Of a stretch of DNA of 39,343 nucleotides, positions 1 to 13,337 are shown piece by piece (the first letter of the stretch is position 1; every line of letters begins with the position of its first letter). This DNA comes from an uncultured Eubacterium sp. (GTDB lineage Bacteria > Bacillota > Clostridia > Lachnospirales > Lachnospiraceae): NCBI GenBank assembly GCA_900321215.1, contig ONVE01000066.1, positions 1 through 39,343 on the forward strand, read 5' to 3'. The position numbers were made by a program, and so were the translations under genes. The notes below the pieces were generated by a model. That model was given only the letters and a program-made list of their open reading frames with translations, ran no database searches and had not been told where the DNA came from.

Positions 1-3000
1 AGATCGTCATAAAATCTCTTATCCTTACAATCATAGTTTCTGTATTCACCCGGCACTCTCTCAAGCAGCTCCTTTGATTTTTCACTGTCTCCCAGGAAAT
101 AATACATTTCTGCAAAACGTGTCAGACGCATCTGTTTATCAGGAGAATAAGCGAGGTAAGACTCTTCATCTTTACTCTTACGGCAGATATGCTCTCTAAA
201 CTTCAGTGCCTCTCTTCTTGCATCCTCATATCTCTTAAGACGGTAGTAACATTCAGCAAGTCTTAAATGTTCACAGCCTACCCACTCCTCATCAGAATAC
301 TCTCCTTCAGTCTCACGCTGCCTGTCATGTATGCGGACTACTCTTTCAAGACAATTTGCGGCAAGTTTATAATCCCTTGAAACATAAAGCATATGTCTTG
401 CTATCATACTGAGGCAGTCTCTTACATCATAAAGAATCCTGACAGCATCATCCGGATCGGGGGTTCGTCCGGTCAAAGCTTCTTTATAAGCATCATGGAT
501 AGTTTTTCTAAAACCACTCTCATATTTTCTGCTATCACTTACAAACTTCCGTATATCCTTGGAAAGATTCTTAAAGCTCTCCAGATCTCCTGAAACCACG
601 TAGAGATCCATTACTGTCAGCTGAAGATCAACTATATTATGCATAATGTCTGTTTTAGGTTCCTTAAGTCTTGATAACAGCTTGTTTATCATAAACGGAG
701 GGATCCTCTGTGAATCCAGATTATCTGCCCCCATCCGCCATTCTTTTCTATATAGATCAAATGATTTCTTATATTCCTCAAGGCTTTTCTTACTGTCTCC
801 GGCTTTAAGCCAGAGCTTTGCAATTTGTTCGTTATATTTAGCGCTGGTAAGCTTAAACCGCTCTCTGATATTGATAAAGAACTTTATCGCTTCATCATAT
901 CTTCCCTGAATTTCAAGACACTTGATATAGTTGGTCTGAAGTGCAGTATATGACTCTTCTTCAAAATGCCTGAGTCCTTCCATGAAAAGCTCCTCGGCTT
1001 CCTTAAGCCTTCCGGTCATCATATATGCATAGGCCTTCGCATTATATCCATAGGCATAATCAGGATCAAGTTCTATACATCTGTCAGCCGTCTTAATTGC
1101 ATTTTCAAAATCATAGGCATCATTATATAAAATAGCAAGCCCGATAATGTAGTAAGGATCCTCATCACCGAGTACTGCCTTCTTTGCATGTAATACAGCC
1201 GCCTCAATATCCTTCTTGTCCTCGGTTTCAAAGTATCTGTCTCTGTAGTAATCAGACAGTTCCTCCCTTGCCTTAGGGAAAAGGTCACTTATCCTTACAG
1301 CCTCTTCAAGCTGGGCAAGCATTTCCTGCTTCTTTCCTTCCTTCTTAAGAACCACCGCATATTCATAATGAACTGCTGCATTTTCAGGGAAAAGCTCCAG
1401 CATATTTTTATATATCTTTATCTTTTCCTTTACTCTCAGACTCTGCTCGCCGTTATGCCCCGTAAGATCCACTAAAAGCCAGTACAGATCCTCATTTCTT
1501 TCATCCGCTGCAAGTCCCTTATCTATACATTCACGAATCTTCTTTATCTTATTCTGCCTTGTCGCAGCATCACTGTTGATATCTAAATATATCGAACGTC
1601 CGTAACTGCAGTAGAATTCTGCTATATCCTCTTCATTATAAAAATCTGTTTTGTTATTTTTGTCTATATCTTTGTCTGTGCCGTCAGTTTCAGCGTTACT
1701 GCTGTCTAACAGTTCTTCAAGCTTTTCAAATATTCGAACAGCTTCTTCGTTCTTACCCTCCGCAGCAAGCTTAGCAGCTACCTCCGCCTCGAGCCTCTGG
1801 CTGTTAACGTTATTCTCTTTTGCTTTCTCAATAACTCTGTCAAAGTCCTCAAAGTATCTGTAGATCCTGAAAACCTTTGCGGCATACAGATATGCATCAG
1901 CAAATCCCGGTACAACAGATGTTATATAGTAATAATCATCAATTACCTGCTGTACTCTTCTCAGATAATACGCCTCAAGCTGTCTTCCGACATACGCAGG
2001 AAGCATCTTATCATCATCCGCTATCATGCTCTCCCATACAGAAAATGCTTCACTGTATCTTTTTTTCCTATGTAAGAACTGAGCGACCGAGCTGCGGTAG
2101 CCCTGCCTTTCTCTTTCGTTATCAGCATACTTTTCCGCAATCCTGTAGTTTTCGAGGGCAGCCTCTTCATTTCCGGTATTCTCCTCACAGATACCCATAA
2201 AATAGTAGCTGTAGCCGAGTCTTTTCAGTCTCTTTCTCTCTTCTTTGGTAAGATTCTCCGGAAGATTGCCGTTCTCATCCTTCTTCTCTTCATAAAGCTT
2301 CACCAGCATCTCATGCCAGTGCCTTACATAAGGAACTGCATCCTCATATCTCTCATCACCAATGAGAGTTCTTGAATATAAATTATAGAAATTATATTCA
2401 TTTTTCTCATCCGGCGGAGCTATACTGTCCAGTAATCTGTATACCTCTTCGGAATTCTTCTCTCTGAGCCTGCACCAGCCGAGTTCTATGGCAGCGTGCT
2501 GATCGTTACTATCCTTTTCCAATCTGTCCAGAAAATACTCGATCATACGTTTATCCGCAATCTCTCTGAAATCGTTTATAAATCTGCTCGAGTCATTTAA
2601 CTCACTTGCCTTTAAGGCTTCATCCTCAGCCTCCTCAAAGTCCCCCTCAAGGAAAAGGTATTCTGCCAAGGCAAGCCTTGCAAAACCAAAGGAATTGTTG
2701 TTCTCGATCACGCTGTCAAGAACACTCTTATATTTCTTATATTCCGGTACAGTGCCCGGATTCTTTATCTCTTCACCAAATAAAACATGAAGCGCAAAGC
2801 CCTCAGTAAAAATGTCTATCTCCTCGCTTCTTTCTTCATCAGCAAGGATCCTTGCGATTCTCAGTGCTTCCTCTGTCCTTCCTGATGAATATAAGCACAT
2901 CATAAGAAGGAGAGCCTCAAAAGGATGCCATATCTCATGCTCTCTCATCGCACTAAGAGTACCTACGCACTTTTTAAAATAGTTATCATTCTCTTCCTGC

Positions 3001-3686
3001 AGCTCATATATGCTGTCATAAAGTCCATAATGGCTGAAGGCTCTTACAGCCTCTCTGATATATATATCATCTTCATTTTTAAGCTTTTCTCTATCCTCTT
3101 CTATCATAGGAGGAAGCTCGATCTCCCTCATAAAGAGATAATCAGACCTGTCCTTTACGAGTGCAAGCTTTCTATACGGAAAGAATGATCCGTTTTTAAT
3201 ATTATTGCAGATATAGGATATAAAATCCTCCGGAAAGCTGTTTTTAAGCTCATCGGCTTCATTTAATATATTGAACGCCTCATCAAAAAGCCTCCACATT
3301 TCATTCGAATATGTAAAGCAGCTCATTGTGAAGACAAGAAATGCATTCCTTACTTCGTCAACTGTATCAAGTCCAACGATAAGAGGATCCGACAGCCATT
3401 CCTTCCAGGCTTCCGGATCATTTCTCTTATATATATCCTTATAAAGCTCTTCAGCCTTATTGATAAGGATCTTCACCGGAGTAAGCTCTTCCTCCTCCGC
3501 TTCCTCCGAAGACTTCTCCTTAGACTCCTTAAGAAATCTGAGAGCTTCTTCAAATGCTTCTCTAAGGTTCTTAAAGCCTTCCGGATCATCCTCCGGATTT
3601 GTAACGAGAAGCTTTTCTCTATAAGCATTTCTGATAACCGCTTCATCACTGGTTTCGGTTATCCCCAGTGCTTTCCAAAAATCCAT
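1..3686 (-). CDS. Large J-domain (DnaJ-like) tetratricopeptide-repeat protein, partial (3' end beyond left edge, >1228 aa)
   Basis: Manually translated from ATG at 3686 (SD-like AAAGGA upstream): [49 protein letters not shown], a short J-domain. The same frame gives TPR-like helices near 1000-1160 ([43 protein letters not shown]) and is still open at 3-62. Its absence from the ORF track fits a frame with no stop in the window. Confidence 0.9.
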
Positions 3687-4487: not shown

Positions 4488-5861
4488 CTACTCAGCTTCC
4501 TGCATTATTCTTATTTTCTTTCTGACATATCTGTAGACGACCAGAAGCCCTAAGATGGTTATCGTCCACGACACCGGATAAGTTATATATATCATCGCAG
4601 TATTGTGGAATATACTCATCTTGAAGAAGGTCTTCAGCCAGAGTATCCTGAGTCCGCAGGCTCCTATCAGTGACACGATCATCGGAAGCACCGAAAAGCC
4701 CATGCCTCTTATGGAACCGACAAGTACATCCATGATACCGCAAAGGAAATAAATGGTGCATATTATAAGCAGTCTGTCAAAGCCCTTATCTATAACCTCC
4801 GCCTTAGGCGAATATATCCTGAGCAGCTGATGGCCGAACAAAACCTCCAGATTTCCGAGAACAAGGCCAGTTACGAAAACGAAAAGCACTCCTGTTTTCA
4901 GTATCTTTCCTATCCTGTCATACCTTCCTGCACCCATATTCTGGCTTGTAAATGAGATAGTCGCCTGATGAATAGCATTCATAGAAACATATACAAAACC
5001 CTCAAGGTTCTGTGATGCGGAATTACCCGCGACAACTGTGGCTCCGAAGGTATTTACCGACGACTGAATAACAACATTTGAAAGTGAGAAAAGCGTTCCC
5101 TGCAGACCTGCCGGTATACCCACCTTAAGTATACGGATAAGTGTATCCTTATCGATACCAAGCTTTTTCAGATTCAGCCTTATATCGCTCTTCTCTCTGA
5201 TAAGGCATATCACGATAAGAGAAGCCGAAATCACCTGTGAGATGACCGTCGCCGTCGCAACTCCCTGCACATCCATTTTAAGCACGATCACAAATATCAG
5301 ATTGAAGATAACATTTATAACTCCTGCCGCAGTAAGGAAGTACAGCGGTCTTTTGGTATCTCCGACAGCACGAAGTATCGCACTTCCGAAGTTATATATC
5401 ATCATTGCAGGAAGTCCTATAAAATATATCTTAAGATACTTTGATGCAAGCGGAAGCACCTCAGCCGGTGAATCCATAAGCGCAAGTATCTTTCCCGCAA
5501 AGAGAATACCGAAGATCATAAGAAATATACCGCCGAGAAGTGCAAGCACCATGGATGTGCTCACTATCTTTCTGGTATGCTCACTGTCCCTTGCTCCCAT
5601 AGCTTTTGCGATAAGCACGTTGGTTCCCACGCTCAGTCCTATGAAAAGATTTGTCATAAGATTGATAAGTGAACTTGTAGATCCTACAGCCGCAAGCGAA
5701 TTTGAGCCTGCAAACTGACCGACAACAACGGTATCGGCAGCATTAAAAAGCAGCTGGAGCACGCTTGAAAGCATGAGCGGCACTGAGAAAAGTATCATTT
5801 TCTTCAGTATCGGTCCGTTCACCATATCTATAGTATTGCTTTTATTTTTAACTGTTGTCAT
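4488..5861 (-). CDS. MATE family efflux transporter
   Basis: Typical MATE motifs (PLMLSSVLQLLFNAADTVVVG, RAVGDTKRPL, SQNMGAG) and many hydrophobic segments; its start overlaps the upstream stop (TAATG). Confidence 0.93.
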   Translation of the reverse strand: MTTVKNKSNTIDMVNGPILKKMILFSVPLMLSSVLQLLFNAADTVVVGQFAGSNSLAAVGSTSSLINLMTNLFIGLSVGTNVLIAKAMGARDSEHTRKIVSTSMVLALLGGIFLMIFGILFAGKILALMDSPAEVLPLASKYLKIYFIGLPAMMIYNFGSAILRAVGDTKRPLYFLTAAGVINVIFNLIFVIVLKMDVQGVATATVISQVISASLIVICLIREKSDIRLNLKKLGIDKDTLIRILKVGIPAGLQGTLFSLSNVVIQSSVNTFGATVVAGNSASQNLEGFVYVSMNAIHQATISFTSQNMGAGRYDRIGKILKTGVLFVFVTGLVLGNLEVLFGHQLLRIYSPKAEVIDKGFDRLLIICTIYFLCGIMDVLVGSIRGMGFSVLPMIVSLIGACGLRILWLKTFFKMSIFHNTAMIYITYPVSWTITILGLLVVYRYVRKKIRIMQEAE

Positions 5862-8605
5862 TATTCTACCTTTTTTTCTCTTTTCCCAAGCAGCATGCCC
5901 AGAAAATATCTGAATGAGGCATTTTTAAAGAAAACCGCCGCCATAAGAACATTTGGTACAGTAATACATATAATGCCATCAAGGATCAGCTTCTTTAATC
6001 CTGCCGGATTTAAATATGAGTTTACACCTTCCGCAAGAAAAAATGTACATGAACATACAAAAAAGAAGATGAAAAGATACCCCAGCATCTCTTTAGCATA
6101 ATCCACGGCACGTCTCTCGAAAAGTCTGATATAAACAAACTTAGGATAGCTGAAGCACCATAGCGCAAGGGAGCTGATGATTGTTCCCATAAATACACCC
6201 GCAAGTCCGAATATCTTAAGAAGAATGATCGACGAAACCAGATTCAGGAGTGACTCCGCAAGCGGAACAAAGCGGTTTTCGTAAAAAATCCCCGCTGCAT
6301 CCTGAAAAGCACTGTAGGTTCCTCTCATAAGAAGCTGGAAAAACTGCAGCGATAATATCACTGCAACAAGCATACCAAGAAGATACCTGTCCCCGAACCA
6401 CCATCCGATAAAAGGTTGAATAAGGACCATCATGGATGTAGCCGCAAAGCATGCTATCCAGAAATTCATGAATCTTATCCTTTTAAACACGGAAAATGAA
6501 TGTTCTTTATCCTCTGTTATAAGCATATTTCCGACACTCGGTGTCAAAGCTGCTATTGCCTGCTGGAAAAGCTTTGTTGCCGCATCGATCACAAGGAAAT
6601 AATTATTGTATAATCCGACAGTTTTCAGCTTCAGGAAAACAGAGATAAGTATATTATCGGTTCCATTTACTATGAAGGTACCGATCTTGTGAAAGAACAG
6701 CGCCCCGACTTTTTTCTTTATATCAGCAAGCACTTCCTTATCAAGCGGCTGTGCTTTACGTCTTTTTAAGAAAGGATACATTCTGTCCGCAAGGAACGAA
6801 ATGACTATATTCTCAAATATACGGAAAGCAAGCTTAACCAGAAGATATGCATAATAATCATGTGTAAGATAAAGCATCATAAGCTGAGCCGTATTTACAC
6901 TTATAAGATAAATAATATGTATTATGCTTAATAAATAATTCTGCTGGTCTGCATAAAGTATCGATCTTTTGTAGCTTAAAAGATACGAGAATACCACATC
7001 AAAAAGATATATCAGAAAAATAGCGGTAAGATTTACATCTGCCTCCCCCGGTTTTGCTATCAAAGGAAGTATCGGGATCAGGCAGAGTCCTGCCATTAAA
7101 ATAATACCGGCAACAATATGAAAGGCCTTCCTGTAAAACTTCATAAGAGAAAGGACGAGGTCCTCGTCCTTATCCTTAAGCGGTTTATAAAGATGAAATA
7201 CTACTGCTTCACCGATCCCGAGATCGACTATCGCAAGCATGGTTATAACATTTGAAAAAAGTCCGTTCAGACCGGCATATTCAAGTCCGAGTATATTTAT
7301 AAAAATCTTCTGTGCAAGAAGCCCTATTATGATGGCTGTAACATTTGCAAACATTGTGAAGAGAAAATTCCTGGCGGATTTCTTTGTTCTTCCGATTTCT
7401 TTTCCAGATTCCTCTTCCGGTCCGTCCGCCTCCTGCTCATCACGAAGTGCGGCAAGCTGCCCTGCATGAGCCGCAAAGATAAAGATAAAGAAGAAATTGG
7501 CAAATGCATGCTGCTCCAGAACGAACATAAGAAGATACAGACCCAGAAAAAGAGATATCCACTTGCTTATATCCTGTTTTCTTGTTCTGAAAAGCTTTAC
7601 CACCGTATAACCTATAATGGAAAGGAATATAAAGAGTCCTATGATACCGCATTTATAAAGCACTTCAACAAACTCATTATGGGTAGTCTGGATAACACTG
7701 TTAAACCAGAAGGTCTTATATCCGTGTCCGAGAAAAGGATAAACTTTAATCTCCTTAAACGCCTTATCCCATACAAAGGTTCTGTTTGTAAGGTCAAGCC
7801 TTTTGTGAAGTATATCGACAATAAGCCATTTAAAGATCTTCTGCCCCCTGAAAACGACGATAAAAACCGTAAAGAATATCCCTGTCAGCGACAAGGTCAC
7901 AGAATTGAATATCTTCGTCTTATCAAGCATTTTCGGAAACAGCATGATAATAAAAAACGGCAGAAGCACAAGGCAGGCCGTCCTGTTTTTTACAAGAAAC
8001 GAAGAAACCATTATGAGTGCGGTGCTGATATAAGCAAATCTCAGTTTTTCCTTATAAAGTACCGTAAATATCGTAAGGAAGAAAAGAAAAGCAGCCTGAA
8101 ATGCAATATGTCCGCTCTTAAATCCAAGAAGCCAGTTTTCAGGATAAAAGCCGTTCATGGTTGAATACATTCCTTTTCTGAAAATGCATACCAGTATCAG
8201 ATTCCCGTAAGTAAGCGAACCGAAGAAAATGATCTGCGATTCCAGAAAGGCTCTCAGATTCTTAAGAATTCCATATTCAATGATAAGGCATATCATTACC
8301 GTGGCAAAAGCATATTCCAGCGATCTTTTCATGCCATCGTTACCATTTACCTTTGAAGCTATGCACATAACAAGAAGAAGTGCACCGAAAAGAAGGTGAA
8401 CAGGCGATATTCTTTTGACAAGCCTGTCCTTCAGAAAAAGCAGTACGACCACTCCGCCCGCTATCACCTCTAGCATTGTATAGGCAAACGGAACCTTTTC
8501 AAAATTATCCCAAAGAAGCGGAACCTGATAAAAAGGAAATGTCAGGCACAAAAAAAGAACCACATATACCAATTCTTTCAGCCTTTTTTGCTTTTCACTG
8601 TTCAT
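5861..8605 (-). CDS. Fusion protein: N-terminal O-antigen ligase/Wzy-polymerase family domain plus C-terminal Wzx-type polysaccharide flippase
   Basis: aa ~1-385 are polytopic with Wzy_C-like motifs (LTNRTFVW, PFLGHG, THNEFVEVLYKCGIIG), followed by an acidic linker. aa ~404-914 begin GRTKKSARN...LGLEYAGLNGLFSNVITMLAIVDLGIG, typical of clostridial flippases, with TDNILIS and VGLYNNY motifs. Confidence 0.82.
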   Translation of the reverse strand: MNSEKQKRLKELVYVVLFLCLTFPFYQVPLLWDNFEKVPFAYTMLEVIAGGVVVLLFLKDRLVKRISPVHLLFGALLLVMCIASKVNGNDGMKRSLEYAFATVMICLIIEYGILKNLRAFLESQIIFFGSLTYGNLILVCIFRKGMYSTMNGFYPENWLLGFKSGHIAFQAAFLFFLTIFTVLYKEKLRFAYISTALIMVSSFLVKNRTACLVLLPFFIIMLFPKMLDKTKIFNSVTLSLTGIFFTVFIVVFRGQKIFKWLIVDILHKRLDLTNRTFVWDKAFKEIKVYPFLGHGYKTFWFNSVIQTTHNEFVEVLYKCGIIGLFIFLSIIGYTVVKLFRTRKQDISKWISLFLGLYLLMFVLEQHAFANFFFIFIFAAHAGQLAALRDEQEADGPEEESGKEIGRTKKSARNFLFTMFANVTAIIIGLLAQKIFINILGLEYAGLNGLFSNVITMLAIVDLGIGEAVVFHLYKPLKDKDEDLVLSLMKFYRKAFHIVAGIILMAGLCLIPILPLIAKPGEADVNLTAIFLIYLFDVVFSYLLSYKRSILYADQQNYLLSIIHIIYLISVNTAQLMMLYLTHDYYAYLLVKLAFRIFENIVISFLADRMYPFLKRRKAQPLDKEVLADIKKKVGALFFHKIGTFIVNGTDNILISVFLKLKTVGLYNNYFLVIDAATKLFQQAIAALTPSVGNMLITEDKEHSFSVFKRIRFMNFWIACFAATSMMVLIQPFIGWWFGDRYLLGMLVAVILSLQFFQLLMRGTYSAFQDAAGIFYENRFVPLAESLLNLVSSIILLKIFGLAGVFMGTIISSLALWCFSYPKFVYIRLFERRAVDYAKEMLGYLFIFFFVCSCTFFLAEGVNSYLNPAGLKKLILDGIICITVPNVLMAAVFFKNASFRYFLGMLLGKREKKVE

Positions 8606-9693
8606 TATACTCCTCCGTTTTTATGTTTCCAGAATAAAAAGAGCAGTCGCAGCTTAAAGAGAATAGCCTTCTGTCTGTCTCTTCCCGAAGCATATCTTAT
8701 ATACTTTAAGGATTTTATACTCTTCCACGGTTCATCTCTGTGAAGATGCTTAAGTATCTTCCGTCTCTCCACCCTGCCGGGACAGTAGTCCGGATGGCCG
8801 TAAAGACATTTATATATATATCTCAGTGAATCCATGACAAGTCTTGTATATCCATGGTATTCAAGCTTATTATCAAGATCAAGCAGTTCGGATAGTCTCT
8901 CTATCGGTTTTTCGATATCTGATATAACATTTTCATTAAATGCATTTGAAACCGACGCTTCATTTTCGAAATAGTAATACCAGACGGATCTTAAGTAGCA
9001 GATCTTAAGGCCTGAAAGCATTTCAATATTCCAGATTGCATCCTCATATATTCTGATGCCTTCCGGGAACCTGTAATCTCCTTCGATAAGGGCATTTTTT
9101 CTGATGAATCTTCCCGCTATTCCTCTGCTGATATAGCCTCCGTCTTCAAATCTGTAAGGTTCGGCTATACATTCAAAATGTGTTTTATGCTTTCTTTTCT
9201 CTGTAAGCTTTATAGTCCTGCTTTTTAATTCTTCCGCAGTAAATGCTCTTTCTTTTCCGGATATCCCTAAAGAATTATCTACGGACACAGCCGGATTTTT
9301 ATCACTGTTTTTATCGCTGTAAATATATAATGTTCCGCCAAATACCGCATCATACTTTGAACTGCTGAGAACAGTCACTGCCTCTTCAAAGCAGAAACGG
9401 TCAAGAGTATCATCTCCGTCAAGGTAAGTAATGATATCTCCCGCAGCCTTCTCAACCGCAAAATTTCTGGCTCCGGATACTCCAAGGCTTTCCACTCTGA
9501 AATATCTGATCCTTGCATCTGTCCCGGCGATCTTTTTCATTACAGCCGAGAACTCCTCCCTGCTTCCGTCATCTATCAGAAGTATCTCATAATTATCATA
9601 ACTCTGAGTAAGAACACTCTCTACAGCCCGCTTTAAGTACTCCTCATTTCCGTTTTTAACCGGCAGTATTACGCTTATCTTATCATTCTTCAT
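8605..9693 (-). CDS. Glycosyltransferase family 2
   Basis: ISVILPVKN, LIDDGS, GVSGARN, YLDGDD (DxD) and ED motifs. Confidence 0.92.
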   Translation of the reverse strand: MKNDKISVILPVKNGNEEYLKRAVESVLTQSYDNYEILLIDDGSREEFSAVMKKIAGTDARIRYFRVESLGVSGARNFAVEKAAGDIITYLDGDDTLDRFCFEEAVTVLSSSKYDAVFGGTLYIYSDKNSDKNPAVSVDNSLGISGKERAFTAEELKSRTIKLTEKRKHKTHFECIAEPYRFEDGGYISRGIAGRFIRKNALIEGDYRFPEGIRIYEDAIWNIEMLSGLKICYLRSVWYYYFENEASVSNAFNENVISDIEKPIERLSELLDLDNKLEYHGYTRLVMDSLRYIYKCLYGHPDYCPGRVERRKILKHLHRDEPWKSIKSLKYIRYASGRDRQKAILFKLRLLFLFWKHKNGGV

Positions 9694-10504
9694 AATAAGC
9701 CTCTAATTCATGGGTCAGTCTATCCTCTTCCGGAGGAATAGTCATATAATCACCGTAAATACCTGTAAGATATTCATCGTAAGCCGCCGTTGCAAGAAAA
9801 TAATGTCCCTCGAAAAAAAGCTCGGTCATTTCCTCAAATTTTTCCTTCGTAAGTACCTGTCCCGGACCGTCGTAAGCCCAGCTGATCATTCCGCACTTTG
9901 GTGAATGTGAATACGAATACTTTAATCCAAGCCTTCTCTGCAGTGCAGAGATCCTTCTTCTTCCTATAAGCTTTGCAAGCGGCTTAAGAAAAACAGCCTT
10001 TACCACTATCTTAAAGCCTGTTTTTCCGTAACCCGTATTAACAGCTGAAATGATATTCAGCTTAACAAGTATCATACCAATCCTGTAATGAAGCTTTATC
10101 CTCTTCTCCGAATCAGGAAGTCCGTCAACCGGGAAAATATCTATCCAGACTGACTTAACGTCCTTCTGTTTATAATGCTTCTCCGAAACCTTAGTCTTCC
10201 TGTCAAACAATTTCATATATGGTGCGTCAAGCGTCTTATCCTCAAAAGAAGCAAGAAAAAGATTATCCGGCCACAGTTTTTTCTTTCTGTTAAGCCTCAG
10301 AAGCTTTTCATAATCCGGCCTTGGCATCGTAAGATCAATATCATCGTCCCACGGAATAAAGCCTTTATGTCTGACAGCGCCGATAAGAGTTCCAAAGGCC
10401 AGAGAATATCTCAGACCGTATTTTCTTGCAACCCTGTCAAATTCGATCAGCATTTTAAGCTCTGTATTCTGTATATCCCCTAAAGTCATTTTCTTAAGCA
10501 TCAT
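9683..10504 (-). CDS. licD: LicD family phosphotransferase
   Basis: Signature GTLIGAVRHKGFIPWDDDIDL, plus IDIFPVD and YLTGIYGDYM. Confidence 0.93.
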   Translation of the reverse strand: MMLKKMTLGDIQNTELKMLIEFDRVARKYGLRYSLAFGTLIGAVRHKGFIPWDDDIDLTMPRPDYEKLLRLNRKKKLWPDNLFLASFEDKTLDAPYMKLFDRKTKVSEKHYKQKDVKSVWIDIFPVDGLPDSEKRIKLHYRIGMILVKLNIISAVNTGYGKTGFKIVVKAVFLKPLAKLIGRRRISALQRRLGLKYSYSHSPKCGMISWAYDGPGQVLTKEKFEEMTELFFEGHYFLATAAYDEYLTGIYGDYMTIPPEEDRLTHELEAYYEE

Positions 10505-11487
10505 TTATCTCCCTTAAGCCTTGCAAAAATATTACAGAAAATACCCATCAGCGGATAAAAATGGCAGAGCATGAATATCATGACCTTTCTTGATTTAACT
10601 ATAGGACCTGCGAGCAGTCTTTTTTCACATTCCTTAAGGTCGGCTCTTAGCCTCTTCTCCTGCTCTTTATACTCCCTGTTTATAGTTTTTCTCGGAACTC
10701 TGGTGATCATTCTGAGAAGAAGGGTAAAGTTTATTCTCTCCCTGTTCAGTATCGCATAAGAGCTGTCCGGCTCAACGCCTTCGGTTATCCTCTCCATCTC
10801 ATCCCATACGGTGATAAGATCAAAATCCTGCATTGAGAATCTGCTTGTCGCACTCTCCGTATTCTTGAAATAATAATATCCTACATCACTTATCTTTATG
10901 ATCTTTTTCGCATCCGCAACCGCTCTGTAGGTTCCTATTACATCCTCGCCTATTCTTATATCCACCGGGAAAAGGTCTTTAGGCAGCAGTTCTCTCTTAT
11001 ATAGCTTTGCCACCGGATAATGTACCCATTCATTGTTATCAATTTTAAACAGTATCCTAAGATACTTATCTCTGTCGTATTCCTTATATCTTACGTTGGC
11101 TGTAGTAGTCTCCTGATCTTCATTATCAACTCTCTGAAGCTCGCAGGTAACCAGATCAGCCTTTTTTTTGACCATAACCTTAATAAGGTGCATGACCAGA
11201 TCTCTCTTGATCCAGTCATCACTGTCAACAAACATCACATAATCGCCTGAAGCCTTATCCAATCCGGCATTTCTTGCCTTGGATACTCCTCCATGCGGTA
11301 TATCAACCAATATGATCCTGCTGTCATTTTTAGCAAGTTTTCTTGCAATCTCGGGAGAATTATCAGACGACCCGTCATTGACCAGTATTATCTCCAGCCT
11401 TTTGTAGGTCTGATCTGTTATACTGTCAACACATCTTTTTAAATACTTACCCATATTATAATAAGGCACAATAACACTTACCACCAC
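10501..11487 (-). CDS. Glycosyltransferase family 2
   Basis: SVIVPYYN, VNDGSSD, GVSKARN, FVDSDD and GED motifs; GTG start with SD GGGAG. Confidence 0.93.
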   Translation of the reverse strand: MVVSVIVPYYNMGKYLKRCVDSITDQTYKRLEIILVNDGSSDNSPEIARKLAKNDSRIILVDIPHGGVSKARNAGLDKASGDYVMFVDSDDWIKRDLVMHLIKVMVKKKADLVTCELQRVDNEDQETTTANVRYKEYDRDKYLRILFKIDNNEWVHYPVAKLYKRELLPKDLFPVDIRIGEDVIGTYRAVADAKKIIKISDVGYYYFKNTESATSRFSMQDFDLITVWDEMERITEGVEPDSSYAILNRERINFTLLLRMITRVPRKTINREYKEQEKRLRADLKECEKRLLAGPIVKSRKVMIFMLCHFYPLMGIFCNIFARLKGDK

Positions 11488-11506: not shown

Positions 11507-12574
11507 CTAAAGCCTTTTACTTATATACATTTCACAAAGAGCATCTAACAAGACTTTGTTATCTTCATAAGTTATATGTCCTATATGCCCGACTCTTAAT
11601 ACGCTGTCAGCTTTATCGCCGCCATTCGGACATACCCATATTCCATATTCTTCCTTTAATATCCTGACGATCTCTTTTGCCCCTTTAGATAAAGGGGTAA
11701 GAGCTGTTACGGCATTTGACGGATTCTCCGGAACTATCATGAGGGGCAGATCCCGTATACCCTCTCTGAACTGTTCTGCGACTTTGCTTATCCTTGATAT
11801 TTCACTCTTCGTACCGCCGCAGGAAATTATATCTTCAAATCTTTTATGTATCTGCAGAAGTATCGTAACCGCCGGTGTGAAAGGAGTCTGTCCTCTTACG
11901 CCGTTTATCAAAGCATCTTTAAGGCTTAGATACATGCATACTTCTTCATTATCATTTATTCTTTTAAGTGCTTCCGGTGCCAGCGCCACAAGTGAAACGC
12001 CCGGCTGACAGGCAAGCGCCTTCTGGGAACCGGTGAGCACCGCCGCAGCATTAAGCTCTGTCATATCAAGCTCGTCTGCAAGAAATGCACTTATGGCATC
12101 AACTATGAGCAGAATACCGTTCTCCTTACAGAACTGTGATACCATTTTCATATCATATAACAGTCCTGATGAGGTCTCATGCATATTTATAAGCAGAGCC
12201 GTATGGTCCTCCAGTCCACTGAGCTGCCCGCGGGTCAGCTGTTTTCCGAATTCACATTTTACTTCTGTATATTTTTTCCTATGAAGCCTGCAGAGCATTG
12301 CAAATCTCTCTCCAAAGCTTCCTCCGTTTATTACAATGACCTTATCCTTATCACTCAGGATATTCATCACGCAGGATTCCATTGCACCTGTTCCCGATGC
12401 AGTTAGAAACACCGCCCTGCTGCCCTCCGGCGCATTCAGGAGCTTTAAAAACATTTCTTCATTTTCAAGCATTGTTTTCGAGAATTCCGGAGTTCTGAAA
12501 TATGGTGCGGAAACACCTGCAACACTGATTACATCCTCAGGCGACATTACCGGACCCACAGTAAAATTTAGCAT
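11507..12574 (-). CDS. Class V PLP-dependent aminotransferase-fold enzyme (AGAT/PhnW-like)
   Basis: FTVGPV, SGTGAME, HETSSG, VDAIS and GSQKAL (PLP lysine), C-terminal LRVGHIG. Confidence 0.88.
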   Translation of the reverse strand: MLNFTVGPVMSPEDVISVAGVSAPYFRTPEFSKTMLENEEMFLKLLNAPEGSRAVFLTASGTGAMESCVMNILSDKDKVIVINGGSFGERFAMLCRLHRKKYTEVKCEFGKQLTRGQLSGLEDHTALLINMHETSSGLLYDMKMVSQFCKENGILLIVDAISAFLADELDMTELNAAAVLTGSQKALACQPGVSLVALAPEALKRINDNEEVCMYLSLKDALINGVRGQTPFTPAVTILLQIHKRFEDIISCGGTKSEISRISKVAEQFREGIRDLPLMIVPENPSNAVTALTPLSKGAKEIVRILKEEYGIWVCPNGGDKADSVLRVGHIGHITYEDNKVLLDALCEMYISKRL

Positions 12575-12591
12575 TATAGAGCCTCCAAATA

Positions 12592-13302
12592 TCAGTTAAG
12601 ATCGGTGGAAATGTGCTTTAACACCCTCTGATAATCCTCTATCGTATCAACCTCCGACCAGAAGATACCATCAACATCAACCGTGTGGATATCTTCACTT
12701 CCGACAAAGGAATATAAAACATTTTCCCACCAGAGATCATACTGTCCATTTTCGATCATTAAACATAAACGGTCATGGAATTTTCTGATCCACTTTCCTT
12801 TTAAGACGCCGATTCCGACATATTCACTGTTTCTTTCTTCTCTTCTCAGCTCCTTACCGAATCTTTGGAGCAGACAGTTTTTACTTTCGAAATAATAATC
12901 CCCGGAATCAGCCCTCGTCTTATCCTCAAGAAGAAATTCATCATAATCTGCCGATAATATCCTGTCGATCATCTCCTCAGTATAATATACATCAGCATTT
13001 GCGATCATGATATCTTCATCTGTCAGAAATTCCTTTTCGGCATACCACAGACTTCCGATACTGTTCGTAACTCTGTAGAAAGGATTGTAGTATATTTTAA
13101 CATCATAGCCCTCAAGTGCCTCATCAAGCATCCGATGCTTAAAGCCTGTAATGACTATAACCTCTATGTTGTTTTTTTTCAGAAGTTCAACAGTGTGGAT
13201 GATAAGAGGTTTTCCTCCGACATCCAGAAGGCTCTTCGGCATCATGCCGATATCCTCCGTAATCCTGCTTCCCACCCCTGCAGCAAGCAGTATGGCTTTC
13301 AT
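12592..13302 (-). CDS. LicC-like phosphocholine/sugar-phosphate cytidylyltransferase (NTP transferase)
   Basis: MKAILLAAGVGSR, PKSLL, NSIGSL, NADV and WSEVDTIED motifs. Start moved to ATG 13302 because SD GGGAGG lies at 13311-13316. Confidence 0.85.
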   Translation of the reverse strand: MKAILLAAGVGSRITEDIGMMPKSLLDVGGKPLIIHTVELLKKNNIEVIVITGFKHRMLDEALEGYDVKIYYNPFYRVTNSIGSLWYAEKEFLTDEDIMIANADVYYTEEMIDRILSADYDEFLLEDKTRADSGDYYFESKNCLLQRFGKELRREERNSEYVGIGVLKGKWIRKFHDRLCLMIENGQYDLWWENVLYSFVGSEDIHTVDVDGIFWSEVDTIEDYQRVLKHISTDLN

Positions 13303-13337
13303 CCTACGGTCCTCCCGTCTATCTACAATTAACACTG

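What the first reader, a model, noticed from the sequence alone, without database searches (positions are those of the whole stretch)
5861..8605. Single-polypeptide fusion of an O-antigen ligase/Wzy domain with a Wzx-type flippase
Seen: a continuous 914-aa frame with two full-length polytopic domains joined by the charged linker RDEQEADGPEEESGKE. The flippase part starts ATC-GGA-AGA-ACA (I404-G-R-T, 7396), where a stand-alone flippase would be expected to begin M-x-R-T, which suggests an old start codon absorbed into the fusion. Known: Wzx and Wzy/WaaL/TacL are normally separate proteins acting in sequence on undecaprenyl-PP glycans. Inference: a natural flip-and-ligate or flip-and-polymerise machine allowing substrate channelling.
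Basis: partly seen in the sequence, partly recalled or inferred. Interest (0 to 1): 0.72.

Follow-up and report, generated by a model that had tools for sequence, protein, structure and literature searches.

The report
Natural glycan polymerase–flippase fusion protein
A group of rumen and gut bacteria encodes, as one conserved 914-residue membrane protein, two parts that are normally separate genes, a sugar-unit flippase and an enzyme that likely polymerises (or possibly ligates) those units, and close relatives keep the same two parts as adjacent genes, which gives a natural pair for testing whether flipping and polymerising are coupled.

Summary
The fusion is real; the frame lies on the minus strand (8605→5861). 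Residues 1–385 fold like WaaL (Z 17.6) and keep its Arg and His; residues 406–908 fold like WzxE/MurJ. Thirty-three other clusters (54–73% identity) carry both full domains, including Eubacterium ruminantium. Contigs from four DNA studies and two RNA-library studies cross the linker without a stop or indel. The 'absorbed start codon' is not supported: that position is Ile in 4 of 42 fusions, never Met. The gene ends a fixed GT2–LicD–GT2 cassette. A sister clade has the same cassette with the halves as two genes overlapping at ATGA, and both domain trees fit one fusion event. Polymerase is favoured over ligase: stand-alone relatives sit in capsule-type loci and the motifs match pneumococcal type-B Wzy. 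Channelling is untested, and the split relatives show fusion is not required. I found no published natural example in five searches of an open-access library, but the scan noted unrelated Wzx–Wzy-type fusions on other DNA, and the Atlas lists more. Verdict: a new variant of the Wzx/Wzy pathway, useful mainly as an experimental handle.

The parts
5861..8605 (-). 914-aa fusion gene (Wzy/WaaL-class GT-C domain, linker, Wzx-type flippase)
7451..8605 (-). Residues 1-385: GT-C1/GT-CB domain, 12 predicted membrane helices, both ends predicted inside the cell
   Evidence: Pfam Wzy_C; model pLDDT 95.2, pTM 0.93; Z 17.6, rmsd 4.9, 327 aligned to WaaL 7tpj; loop charges
7781..7783 (-). R275, aligns with WaaL R265 (binds the lipid diphosphate in WaaL)
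   Evidence: 42 of 42 fusions, 127 of 128 family rows; alignment to 7tpg; role from PMC10920833
7679..7681 (-). H309, aligns with WaaL H313 (proposed to activate the acceptor); part of the HN-x9-G-x2-G motif
   Evidence: 42 of 42 fusions, 128 of 128 family rows
8114..8116 (-). S164, replacing an Asn that is nearly invariant in the family
   Evidence: Ser in 42 of 42 fusions and in P0122; Asn in 124 of 128 family rows and in 3 of 3 split sister-clade rows
7391..7450 (-). Residues 386-405: charged linker, predicted cytoplasmic, variable in sequence and length; contains I404 (7394-7396)
   Evidence: E364-to-R406 distance 41-53 residues over 42 fusions; pLDDT under 50 at 396-415
5882..7390 (-). 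Residues 406-908: Wzx-type MOP-superfamily flippase
   Evidence: Polysacc_synt_3; Foldseek WzxE 9g9n E 7e-6, MurJ 9nu5 E 1e-5; 29-34% to plasmid 'oligosaccharide flippase' proteins
8605..9693 (-). GT2 glycosyltransferase (GT2a); its stop overlaps the fusion start by one base
   Evidence: conserved directly upstream
9683..10504 (-). LicD-family phosphotransferase
   Evidence: Pfam 152 bits; conserved
10501..11487 (-). GT2 glycosyltransferase (GT2b), first gene of the fixed cassette
11507..12574 (-). Class V PLP enzyme (aminotransferase fold); frequent cassette companion
   Evidence: closest solved relative 3f0h E 9e-119; in 11 of 19 loci
12592..13335 (-). LicC/PntC-like cytidylyltransferase; frequent cassette companion
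   Evidence: best solved relatives LicC 1jyk E 1e-16 and 6pd1 E 2e-11; in 8 of 19 loci

Best explanation
The gene encodes one membrane protein in which a Wzx-type flippase is tethered by a short linker to a WaaL-fold glycosyltransferase that likely acts as a Wzy polymerase, so one chain would both flip and polymerise the lipid-linked repeat unit of a cell-surface glycan. Inferred steps: (1) a phosphoglycosyl transferase encoded elsewhere primes undecaprenyl phosphate; (2) the two GT2 enzymes add sugars; (3) LicD adds a phospho-substituent from a CDP donor, probably an amino-alcohol phosphate made by the PLP enzyme and activated by the LicC-like enzyme; (4) the C domain flips the unit; (5) the N domain, using R275 and H309 on the outer face, joins units with inversion of configuration; (6) an LCP protein would attach the chain to the wall. 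The fusion likely arose once, by a frameshift at an overlapping ATGA junction between two already adjacent genes. Its surest effect is 1:1 stoichiometry and co-localisation; direct hand-over of substrate is possible but untested. Shown: single frame, both folds, conserved residues, cassette, split relatives. Inferred: every activity and substrate.
For: Folds. R275, H309, N310, E364 in 42 of 42 fusions. dN/dS about 0.05-0.15 in both domains for the moderately diverged pairs L060/L076 and L067/L087, where synonymous sites are near saturation. A 12-helix reading puts the linker inside, with K/R enriched in the short inner loops. GT2b-LicD-GT2a lies directly upstream in 17 of 17 fusion loci with enough flank, and in the split locus L089. 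Split loci L089 and L090 have the halves adjacent, in the same order, with TGA overlapping ATG. Both domain trees give outgroup, then split clade, then fusions; the fusions as one clade are not rejected and score better (p-AU 0.85 and 0.62); patristic distances of the halves correlate (rho 0.69, 27 of 39 splits shared). For polymerase: nine stand-alone relatives (22-28% to P0122) lie in glycan loci, with a Wzx identified in 7 of 9, a priming transferase in 4 of 9 and a wzh-wzz-wze set in 1 of 9 (81 chosen ORFs scanned, not all ORFs of those loci). The GN1 and GN2 motifs of pneumococcal type-B Wzy (PMC12502699) are both present. Support genes in 5 of 5 fusion genomes: Bac_transf, LCP.
Against: No chain-length regulator travels with the cassette (no other family recurs in more than 3 of 19 loci), and Wzz was found in only 2 of 5 fusion genomes, missing from two that are 99-100% complete. 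PMC10920833 reports Asp/Glu, not His, at the catalytic position in its classified inverting polymerase families, and the nearest solved relatives are a ligase and an oligosaccharyltransferase. The first WaaL arginine (R191) has no conserved counterpart: Arg at 208 in 14 of 42 fusions. The fusion clade carries N164S, so its activity may differ from that of the stand-alone family. The relatives with informative context are only 22-28% identical. The split sister clade is common (26 clusters). No priming enzyme is in the cassette, so the glycan is unknown.
Confidence: 0.55

Rival explanations
1. Flip-and-ligate: the N domain is a ligase (WaaL/TacL-like, or a protein O-oligosaccharyltransferase) that moves a single short phospho-decorated oligosaccharide onto a glycolipid anchor or a surface protein.
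For: His at the WaaL H313 position; best structure WaaL and best sequence hit an oligosaccharyltransferase, 9rmk; no Wzz in the cassette and none found in 3 of 5 genomes; minimal cassette with only two GTs; clade-specific N164S.
Against: The HN motif also marks pneumococcal type-B polymerases; no solved Wzy of this class appeared in the searches, so the WaaL match cannot separate the two; stand-alone relatives occupy the Wzy position in capsule-type loci; the domain ends near residue 385, without the long C-terminal part of the 610-aa 9rmk.
Confidence: 0.27
2. Passive fusion (independent of which reaction the N domain performs): a frameshift joined two coupled genes, the product was tolerated, and it persists because re-splitting needs a new stop and a new start together. 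The domains work independently.
For: Linker unconserved in sequence and length, pN 0.3-0.65 between diverged pairs; split clade abundant with the same cassette; a second split pair P0122/P0050 (398 + 526 aa) lies very near the fusions (their clusters share four contig lengths).
Against: The fusion has been kept across 42 sequences with near-saturated synonymous sites; the linker stays within 41-53 residues (E364 to R406) and keeps Gln391 in at least 90% of rows; unrelated lineages made the same kind of fusion (P0317; Atlas).
Confidence: 0.45
3. The N domain is catalytically altered or dead and serves as a scaffold or regulator of the flippase.
For: N164S in all fusions; no conserved counterpart of WaaL R191.
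Against: R275, H309, N310, E364, H166 invariant in 42 of 42; purifying selection on the domain; the missing first Arg is a trait of the whole stand-alone family.
Confidence: 0.07
4. Assembly artefact, or a fused frame that is really expressed as two proteins from an internal start.
For: A purine-rich stretch precedes I404 in this window; no protein-level data.
Against: Independent contigs and 33 other clusters are fused; an in-frame ATG/GTG/TTG within four codons of R406 occurs in 2 of 19 genes, neither an ATG.
Confidence: 0.04

Closest known systems
Wzx/Wzy-dependent pathway with a type-B (inverting, Wzy_C-like) polymerase, as in Streptococcus pneumoniae capsules (PMC12502699; PMC10920833 clan GT-C1)
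   Same: MOP flippase plus GT-C1 enzyme with GN1/GN2 motifs, next to GT2 and LicD genes; stand-alone relatives lie in such loci.
   Different: Both functions are in one chain; the cassette has no priming transferase, Wzz/Wze or LCP and sits in different flanks in different genomes.
WaaL O-antigen ligase (GT121, PDB 7TPG/7TPJ) and PglL-type oligosaccharyltransferase (9RMK)
   Same: Fold (Z 17.6), second Arg and catalytic His.
   Different: First Arg not conserved; 14% identity; the host lineage is monoderm, so there is no lipid A-core acceptor (recalled); fused to a flippase.
Pneumococcal teichoic-acid pathway (TacF flippase, TarP/TarQ polymerase, LicC/LicD; PMC13385700; the ligase TacL is recalled)
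   Same: MOP flippase, extracellular GT-C enzyme, LicD and a LicC-like cytidylyltransferase; many fusion genomes are rich in choline-binding-type repeats.
   Different: No choline kinase found in 7 of 7 fusion genomes searched; a class V PLP enzyme is present instead; that paper says no direct TacF-TarP/Q interaction has been reported.
Bimodular WadA ligase-GT25 (PMC10920833) and other, uncharacterised Wzy_C-flippase fusions (P0317, Ktedonobacteraceae; Atlas clusters in Actinomycetota, Chloroflexota, Bacillota)
   Same: A GT-C1 domain fused to another enzyme of the same pathway; P0317 has the same domain order.
   Different: WadA is fused to a soluble GT. P0317 aligns only over about 98 residues of the Wzy_C loop and not in the flippase, which points to a separate fusion.

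Membership tests
GT-C1 / GT-CB clan (WaaL, SEDS, inverting Wzy) | WaaL/SEDS fold with a long outer loop near the C-terminus | tested here: met
   Z 17.6 to WaaL, 11.3-11.8 to RodA/FtsW, next row 6.3; loop 253-318
GT-C1 / GT-CB clan (WaaL, SEDS, inverting Wzy) | One or two conserved Arg and an acceptor-activating His/Asp/Glu on the outer face | tested here: met
   R275 and H309 invariant in 42 of 42
O-antigen ligase GT121 (WaaL) | Both Arg (R191, R265) plus His313 | tested here: not met
   R265 and H313 counterparts present; at the R191 position Arg in only 14 of 42 fusions, mostly Ala/Ser in the family; that part of the alignment to 7tpg is weak
O-antigen ligase GT121 (WaaL) | Transfer onto lipid A-core or another non-self acceptor; match to the CAZy GT121 model | not testable with these tools
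   No CAZy models or assay available
Type-B Wzy polymerase | GN1 R-x(11-24)-G-x-G and GN2 H-N-x9-G-x(2-4)-G motifs | tested here: met
   Both in the window protein; GN2 in 42 of 42 fusions. The motifs are shared with ligases
Type-B Wzy polymerase | Works with a polysaccharide co-polymerase (Wzz/Wzc type) | tested here: inconclusive
   None conserved in the cassette; PF02706 in 2 of 5 genomes; divergent co-polymerases could be missed
Type-B Wzy polymerase | Polymerises Und-PP-linked repeat units | not testable with these tools
   Needs an assay
Wzx flippase (MOP superfamily) | MOP fold and Polysacc_synt-clan profile match | tested here: met
   Foldseek WzxE/MurJ E 1e-5 or better; Polysacc_synt_3 over cut-off
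Wzx flippase (MOP superfamily) | Encoded with the glycosyltransferases of its substrate | tested here: met
   GT2b-LicD-GT2a upstream in 17 of 17 loci with enough flank
Wzx flippase (MOP superfamily) | Translocates an Und-PP-oligosaccharide | not testable with these tools
   Needs an assay
Pneumococcal-type phosphocholine teichoic-acid system | LicC and LicD present | tested here: met
   the LicC-like enzyme is equally PntC-like and its substrate is unknown
Pneumococcal-type phosphocholine teichoic-acid system | Choline kinase LicA | tested here: not met
   PF01633 not found in 7 of 7 fusion genomes, 67-100% complete; a divergent kinase could be missed
Pneumococcal-type phosphocholine teichoic-acid system | Choline-binding-repeat proteins that dock on the polymer | tested here: inconclusive
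   PF21540-rich in 6 of 6 fusion genomes against 3 of 58 others in the genus, but 8 or more matches in only 3 of 12 fusion genomes elsewhere; repeat-rich genomes without LicD or fusion exist
Phosphonate (Pnt) tailoring pathway | PEP mutase in the genome | tested here: not met
   0 of 5 fusion genomes over the cut-off; uptake of ready-made aminoethylphosphonate is not excluded

The most novel reading that the evidence does not exclude
A self-contained, mobile flip-and-polymerise machine: one chain hands lipid-linked repeat units directly from flippase to polymerase without a Wzz partner, building a teichoic-acid-like wall polymer that carries an amino-alcohol phosphate other than choline and serves as the docking surface for the repeat-bearing fibre-degrading enzymes of these rumen bacteria.
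Probability: 0.12. Interest if true: 0.82.

Novelty: new variant of a known kind. Interest (0 to 1): 0.5.

Why it matters
A Wzx-Wzy-Wzz complex was proposed from complementation genetics and is described as a proposal in PMC10030265; for the pneumococcal flippase TacF no direct contact with its polymerase has been reported (PMC13385700). This family supplies a single chain for structure determination, named strains that carry it (Eubacterium ruminantium FB3002, Lachnospiraceae C6A11), and a natural split control with the same cassette, so coupling can be tested by comparing fused and split forms. The cassette also points to an undescribed phospho-decorated surface glycan of rumen bacteria. The value is limited because such fusions recur in other lineages, are not required for the pathway, and nothing here shows new chemistry.

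Tried and rejected
Relic start codon: rejected. Assembly artefact: rejected. Complex prediction of the two halves gave 'no answer' (ipSAE 0.00 twice, controls not folded), which is no evidence either way. The full-length model had pTM 0.50, so the relative placing of the domains is not resolved. Secondary fission: the quick trees nested P0122/P0050 among the fusions, but constrained searches found better trees with them outside (log-likelihood higher by 31.7 and 4.8), so I do not claim it; the quick trees were not optimal. His as a ligase marker: dropped, because pneumococcal type-B polymerases share the HN motif. TagO/WecA as primer: each of 5 genomes has one PF00953 gene; in G000 it follows a PBP gene, so it is probably MraY. 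NCBIfam gave no family for the whole protein or the N domain. A family-wide NCBIfam tally of the N domain was not obtained. The single-sequence locus scan found nothing. The fusion profile found no PDB sequence. The promoter/terminator scan was near chance level, 34 against 25±5 and 6 against 6. The adjacent MATE gene is not part of the cassette: it is a neighbour in 1 of 19 loci. Searching the scan's notes by sequence found nothing. The taxon of the 55-58% GC split clade was not found (no close match in 399 genomes). CAZy family assignment was not possible; the seed lists in the supplements of PMC10920833 were not opened and could bear on it.
Full report
Observation. The stated interval is one 914-codon ORF on the minus strand. 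The linker and the I404-G-R-T codons at 7396 are as described. The genome is an 80%-complete assembly of 277 contigs. Named relatives of the protein are Lachnospiraceae-type bacteria, the closest being Eubacterium ruminantium at 73%, and the runs holding the gene are mostly cattle and sheep gut samples by their record.

The fusion is real. Three of four DNA runs from four studies hold the gene in one contig and the fourth bridges the linker; no indel or stop appears there. Two RNA-library studies also give contigs across the linker, though DNA in those libraries was not excluded. Of the best 120 listed of 344 homologues, 34 clusters cover 97-100% of the protein: its own and 33 at 54-73% identity. 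It is patchy: 6 of 64 genomes in the genus and 2 of 400 in a family sample.

Domains. A model of residues 1-390 (pLDDT 95.2) matches WaaL at Z 17.6 and SEDS proteins at about 11.5, far above the next row at 6.3. A 128-sequence profile aligns R275 with WaaL R265 and H309 with H313, and its best hit is the oligosaccharyltransferase 9rmk; the roles of those WaaL residues are from PMC10920833. R275, H309, N310 and E364 are present in 42 of 42 fusions (34 database proteins and 13 locus ORFs, five duplicates dropped). The first WaaL arginine has no conserved counterpart, and all fusions carry Ser164 where 124 of 128 family rows have Asn. A 12-helix reading, with boundaries set by hand from the model, puts the catalytic loop outside and the linker inside. 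The C domain matches WzxE and MurJ and Polysacc_synt_3 when scanned alone. Both domains show dN/dS of about 0.05-0.15 in two moderately diverged pairs, with synonymous sites near saturation.

The start-codon idea fails. Stand-alone relatives do begin M-N-R-T, but two residues before the conserved Arg the fusions have Ala 12, Lys 7, Gly 5, Ile 4 and no Met. The linker varies in sequence and by 12 residues in length.

Context and origin. GT2b-LicD-GT2a lies directly upstream in 17 of 17 fusion loci with enough flank. A class V PLP enzyme (11 of 19 loci) and a LicC-like cytidylyltransferase (8 of 19) often accompany it; no other family recurs in more than 3 of 19 loci, and flanks differ, which suggests a mobile cassette. 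Two metagenome loci of 55-58% GC carry the halves as adjacent genes with TGA overlapping ATG, L089 within the same cassette; this split clade has 26 clusters. Trees of each half give outgroup, split clade, fusions (quick IQ-TREE, subsets of the stand-alone hits as outgroups). The fusions as one clade are not rejected and fit better, and the two halves' distances agree (rho 0.69). One fusion by frameshift at an overlapping junction is the simplest reading (inference). A second split pair, P0122/P0050, probably shares contigs (matching contig lengths); whether it split again or branched just before the fusion is unresolved.

Polymerase or ligase. Among the best 150 of 1,798 relatives of the N domain, nearly all are stand-alone proteins of about 380-440 residues or fragments. 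Nine such genes from related genomes lie in glycan loci: Wzx in 7 of 9, a priming transferase in 4 of 9, a wzh-wzz-wze set in 1 of 9 (chosen ORFs only). The protein has both motifs of pneumococcal type-B polymerases (PMC12502699), so its His does not mark a ligase, although PMC10920833 finds Asp/Glu there in its classified polymerase families. Against polymerase, Wzz was found in only 2 of 5 fusion genomes. I put polymerase at 0.55 and ligase at 0.27. All five genomes have Bac_transf and LCP genes elsewhere. None has a PEP mutase over the cut-off, and no choline kinase was found in seven, so the LicD donor is probably a CDP-amino-alcohol made by the PLP enzyme (inference; LicC/PntC chemistry from PMC6697681).

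Coupling. Nothing I could compute bears on channelling directly. The split clade shows the pathway can run unfused; long retention and repeated independent fusions suggest some benefit. I give passive fusion 0.45.

A lead. All 6 fusion genomes in the genus have 22-114 matches to choline-binding repeat PF21540, against 3 of 58 others with 15 or more, and in G000 such repeats sit on a GH9 enzyme. Outside the genus the link is partial: 3 of 12 have 8 or more matches (G881 there is the same genome as G336), 6 of 12 counting PF01473, and counter-examples exist. Kin are not independent, so this stays a lead.

Novelty. Five searches of the open-access library listed no paper whose title or abstract start describes a natural Wzx-Wzy or Wzx-ligase fusion; subscription papers are largely missing, and I opened only four of the listed papers for the word 'fused' in this sense plus PMC13385700, without finding one. 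The type recurs in databases: P0317 from Ktedonobacteraceae has the same domain order but an unalignable flippase, and the Atlas, queried with the homologue P0003, lists several clusters of 920-1171 aa with Wzy_C and/or MurJ/Polysacc_synt families in three phyla. The scan's own notes record four such fusions on other DNA. Papers seen: PMC10920833 parts 1-4 of 8; PMC12502699 passages and section 8; passages only for PMC13385700, PMC10030265, PMC6697681, PMC13721041, PMC7445874, PMC10714938 and 10.1101/2020.06.08.139634; Marolda 2006 only as cited in PMC10030265; no supplements opened.

Verdict. Observation confirmed, interpretation partly supported. A new variant of the Wzx/Wzy pathway, interest 0.5: not new chemistry and not unique in kind, but a well-controlled natural system for a long-standing question.

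Noticed in passing
window 3..3686 (-): ORF of at least 1228 aa running off the window end, beginning with what looks like a J-domain-like N-terminus followed by TPR-like repeats (read by eye, not scanned); 1279 aa in L085.
   Followed up: no
P0164 (782 aa), P0263 (765 aa): The same Wzy_C family is also fused to a C-terminal ATP-grasp domain, a second fusion type, perhaps coupling glycan amidation to polymerisation.
   Followed up: partly
window 11507-13335 (-): Class V PLP enzyme plus LicC-like cytidylyltransferase with LicD, in genomes where neither choline kinase nor PEP mutase was found: possibly an undescribed route to a CDP-amino-alcohol. The closest solved relative, 3f0h, is named only 'Aminotransferase'. 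Two subtypes occur (about 70% and about 42% identity).
   Followed up: partly
L060, L076, L086: The cassette sits among genes that look like a cobalamin biosynthesis cluster (judged from N-terminal sequences, recalled, not scanned), directly before a CobD-like PLP enzyme, and lacks the cytidylyltransferase there.
   Followed up: no
window 5871: One-base length polymorphism in the terminal A-run gives 914- and 912-aa alleles and changes the overlap with the MATE gene.
   Followed up: yes
P0302 (cluster of P0016): A full-length fusion is labelled Aeriscardovia sp. (MAG) while its cluster mates are Lachnospiraceae: mis-binning or transfer across phyla.
   Followed up: no
L117:2677-3351, L118:6909-7583: Orphan 224-aa Bac_transf phosphoglycosyl transferases outside any glycan locus in two fusion genomes; candidates for the missing priming enzyme.
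   Followed up: partly
L084:10016-11455, L095: A 40%-identical flippase is broken into three ORFs in Lactococcus cremoris HP and in a food metagenome.
   Followed up: no
L096, L097: Stand-alone relatives of the N domain lie beside PEP mutase and LicD genes, that is, in probable phosphonoglycan loci.
   Followed up: no
L114:14483-18056 (G000): A GH9 enzyme and a CAP-domain protein with choline-binding-type repeats follow a second LicD/IspD glycan locus with its own weak Wzy_C gene; that locus, not the fusion cassette, could make their docking polymer.
   Followed up: partly
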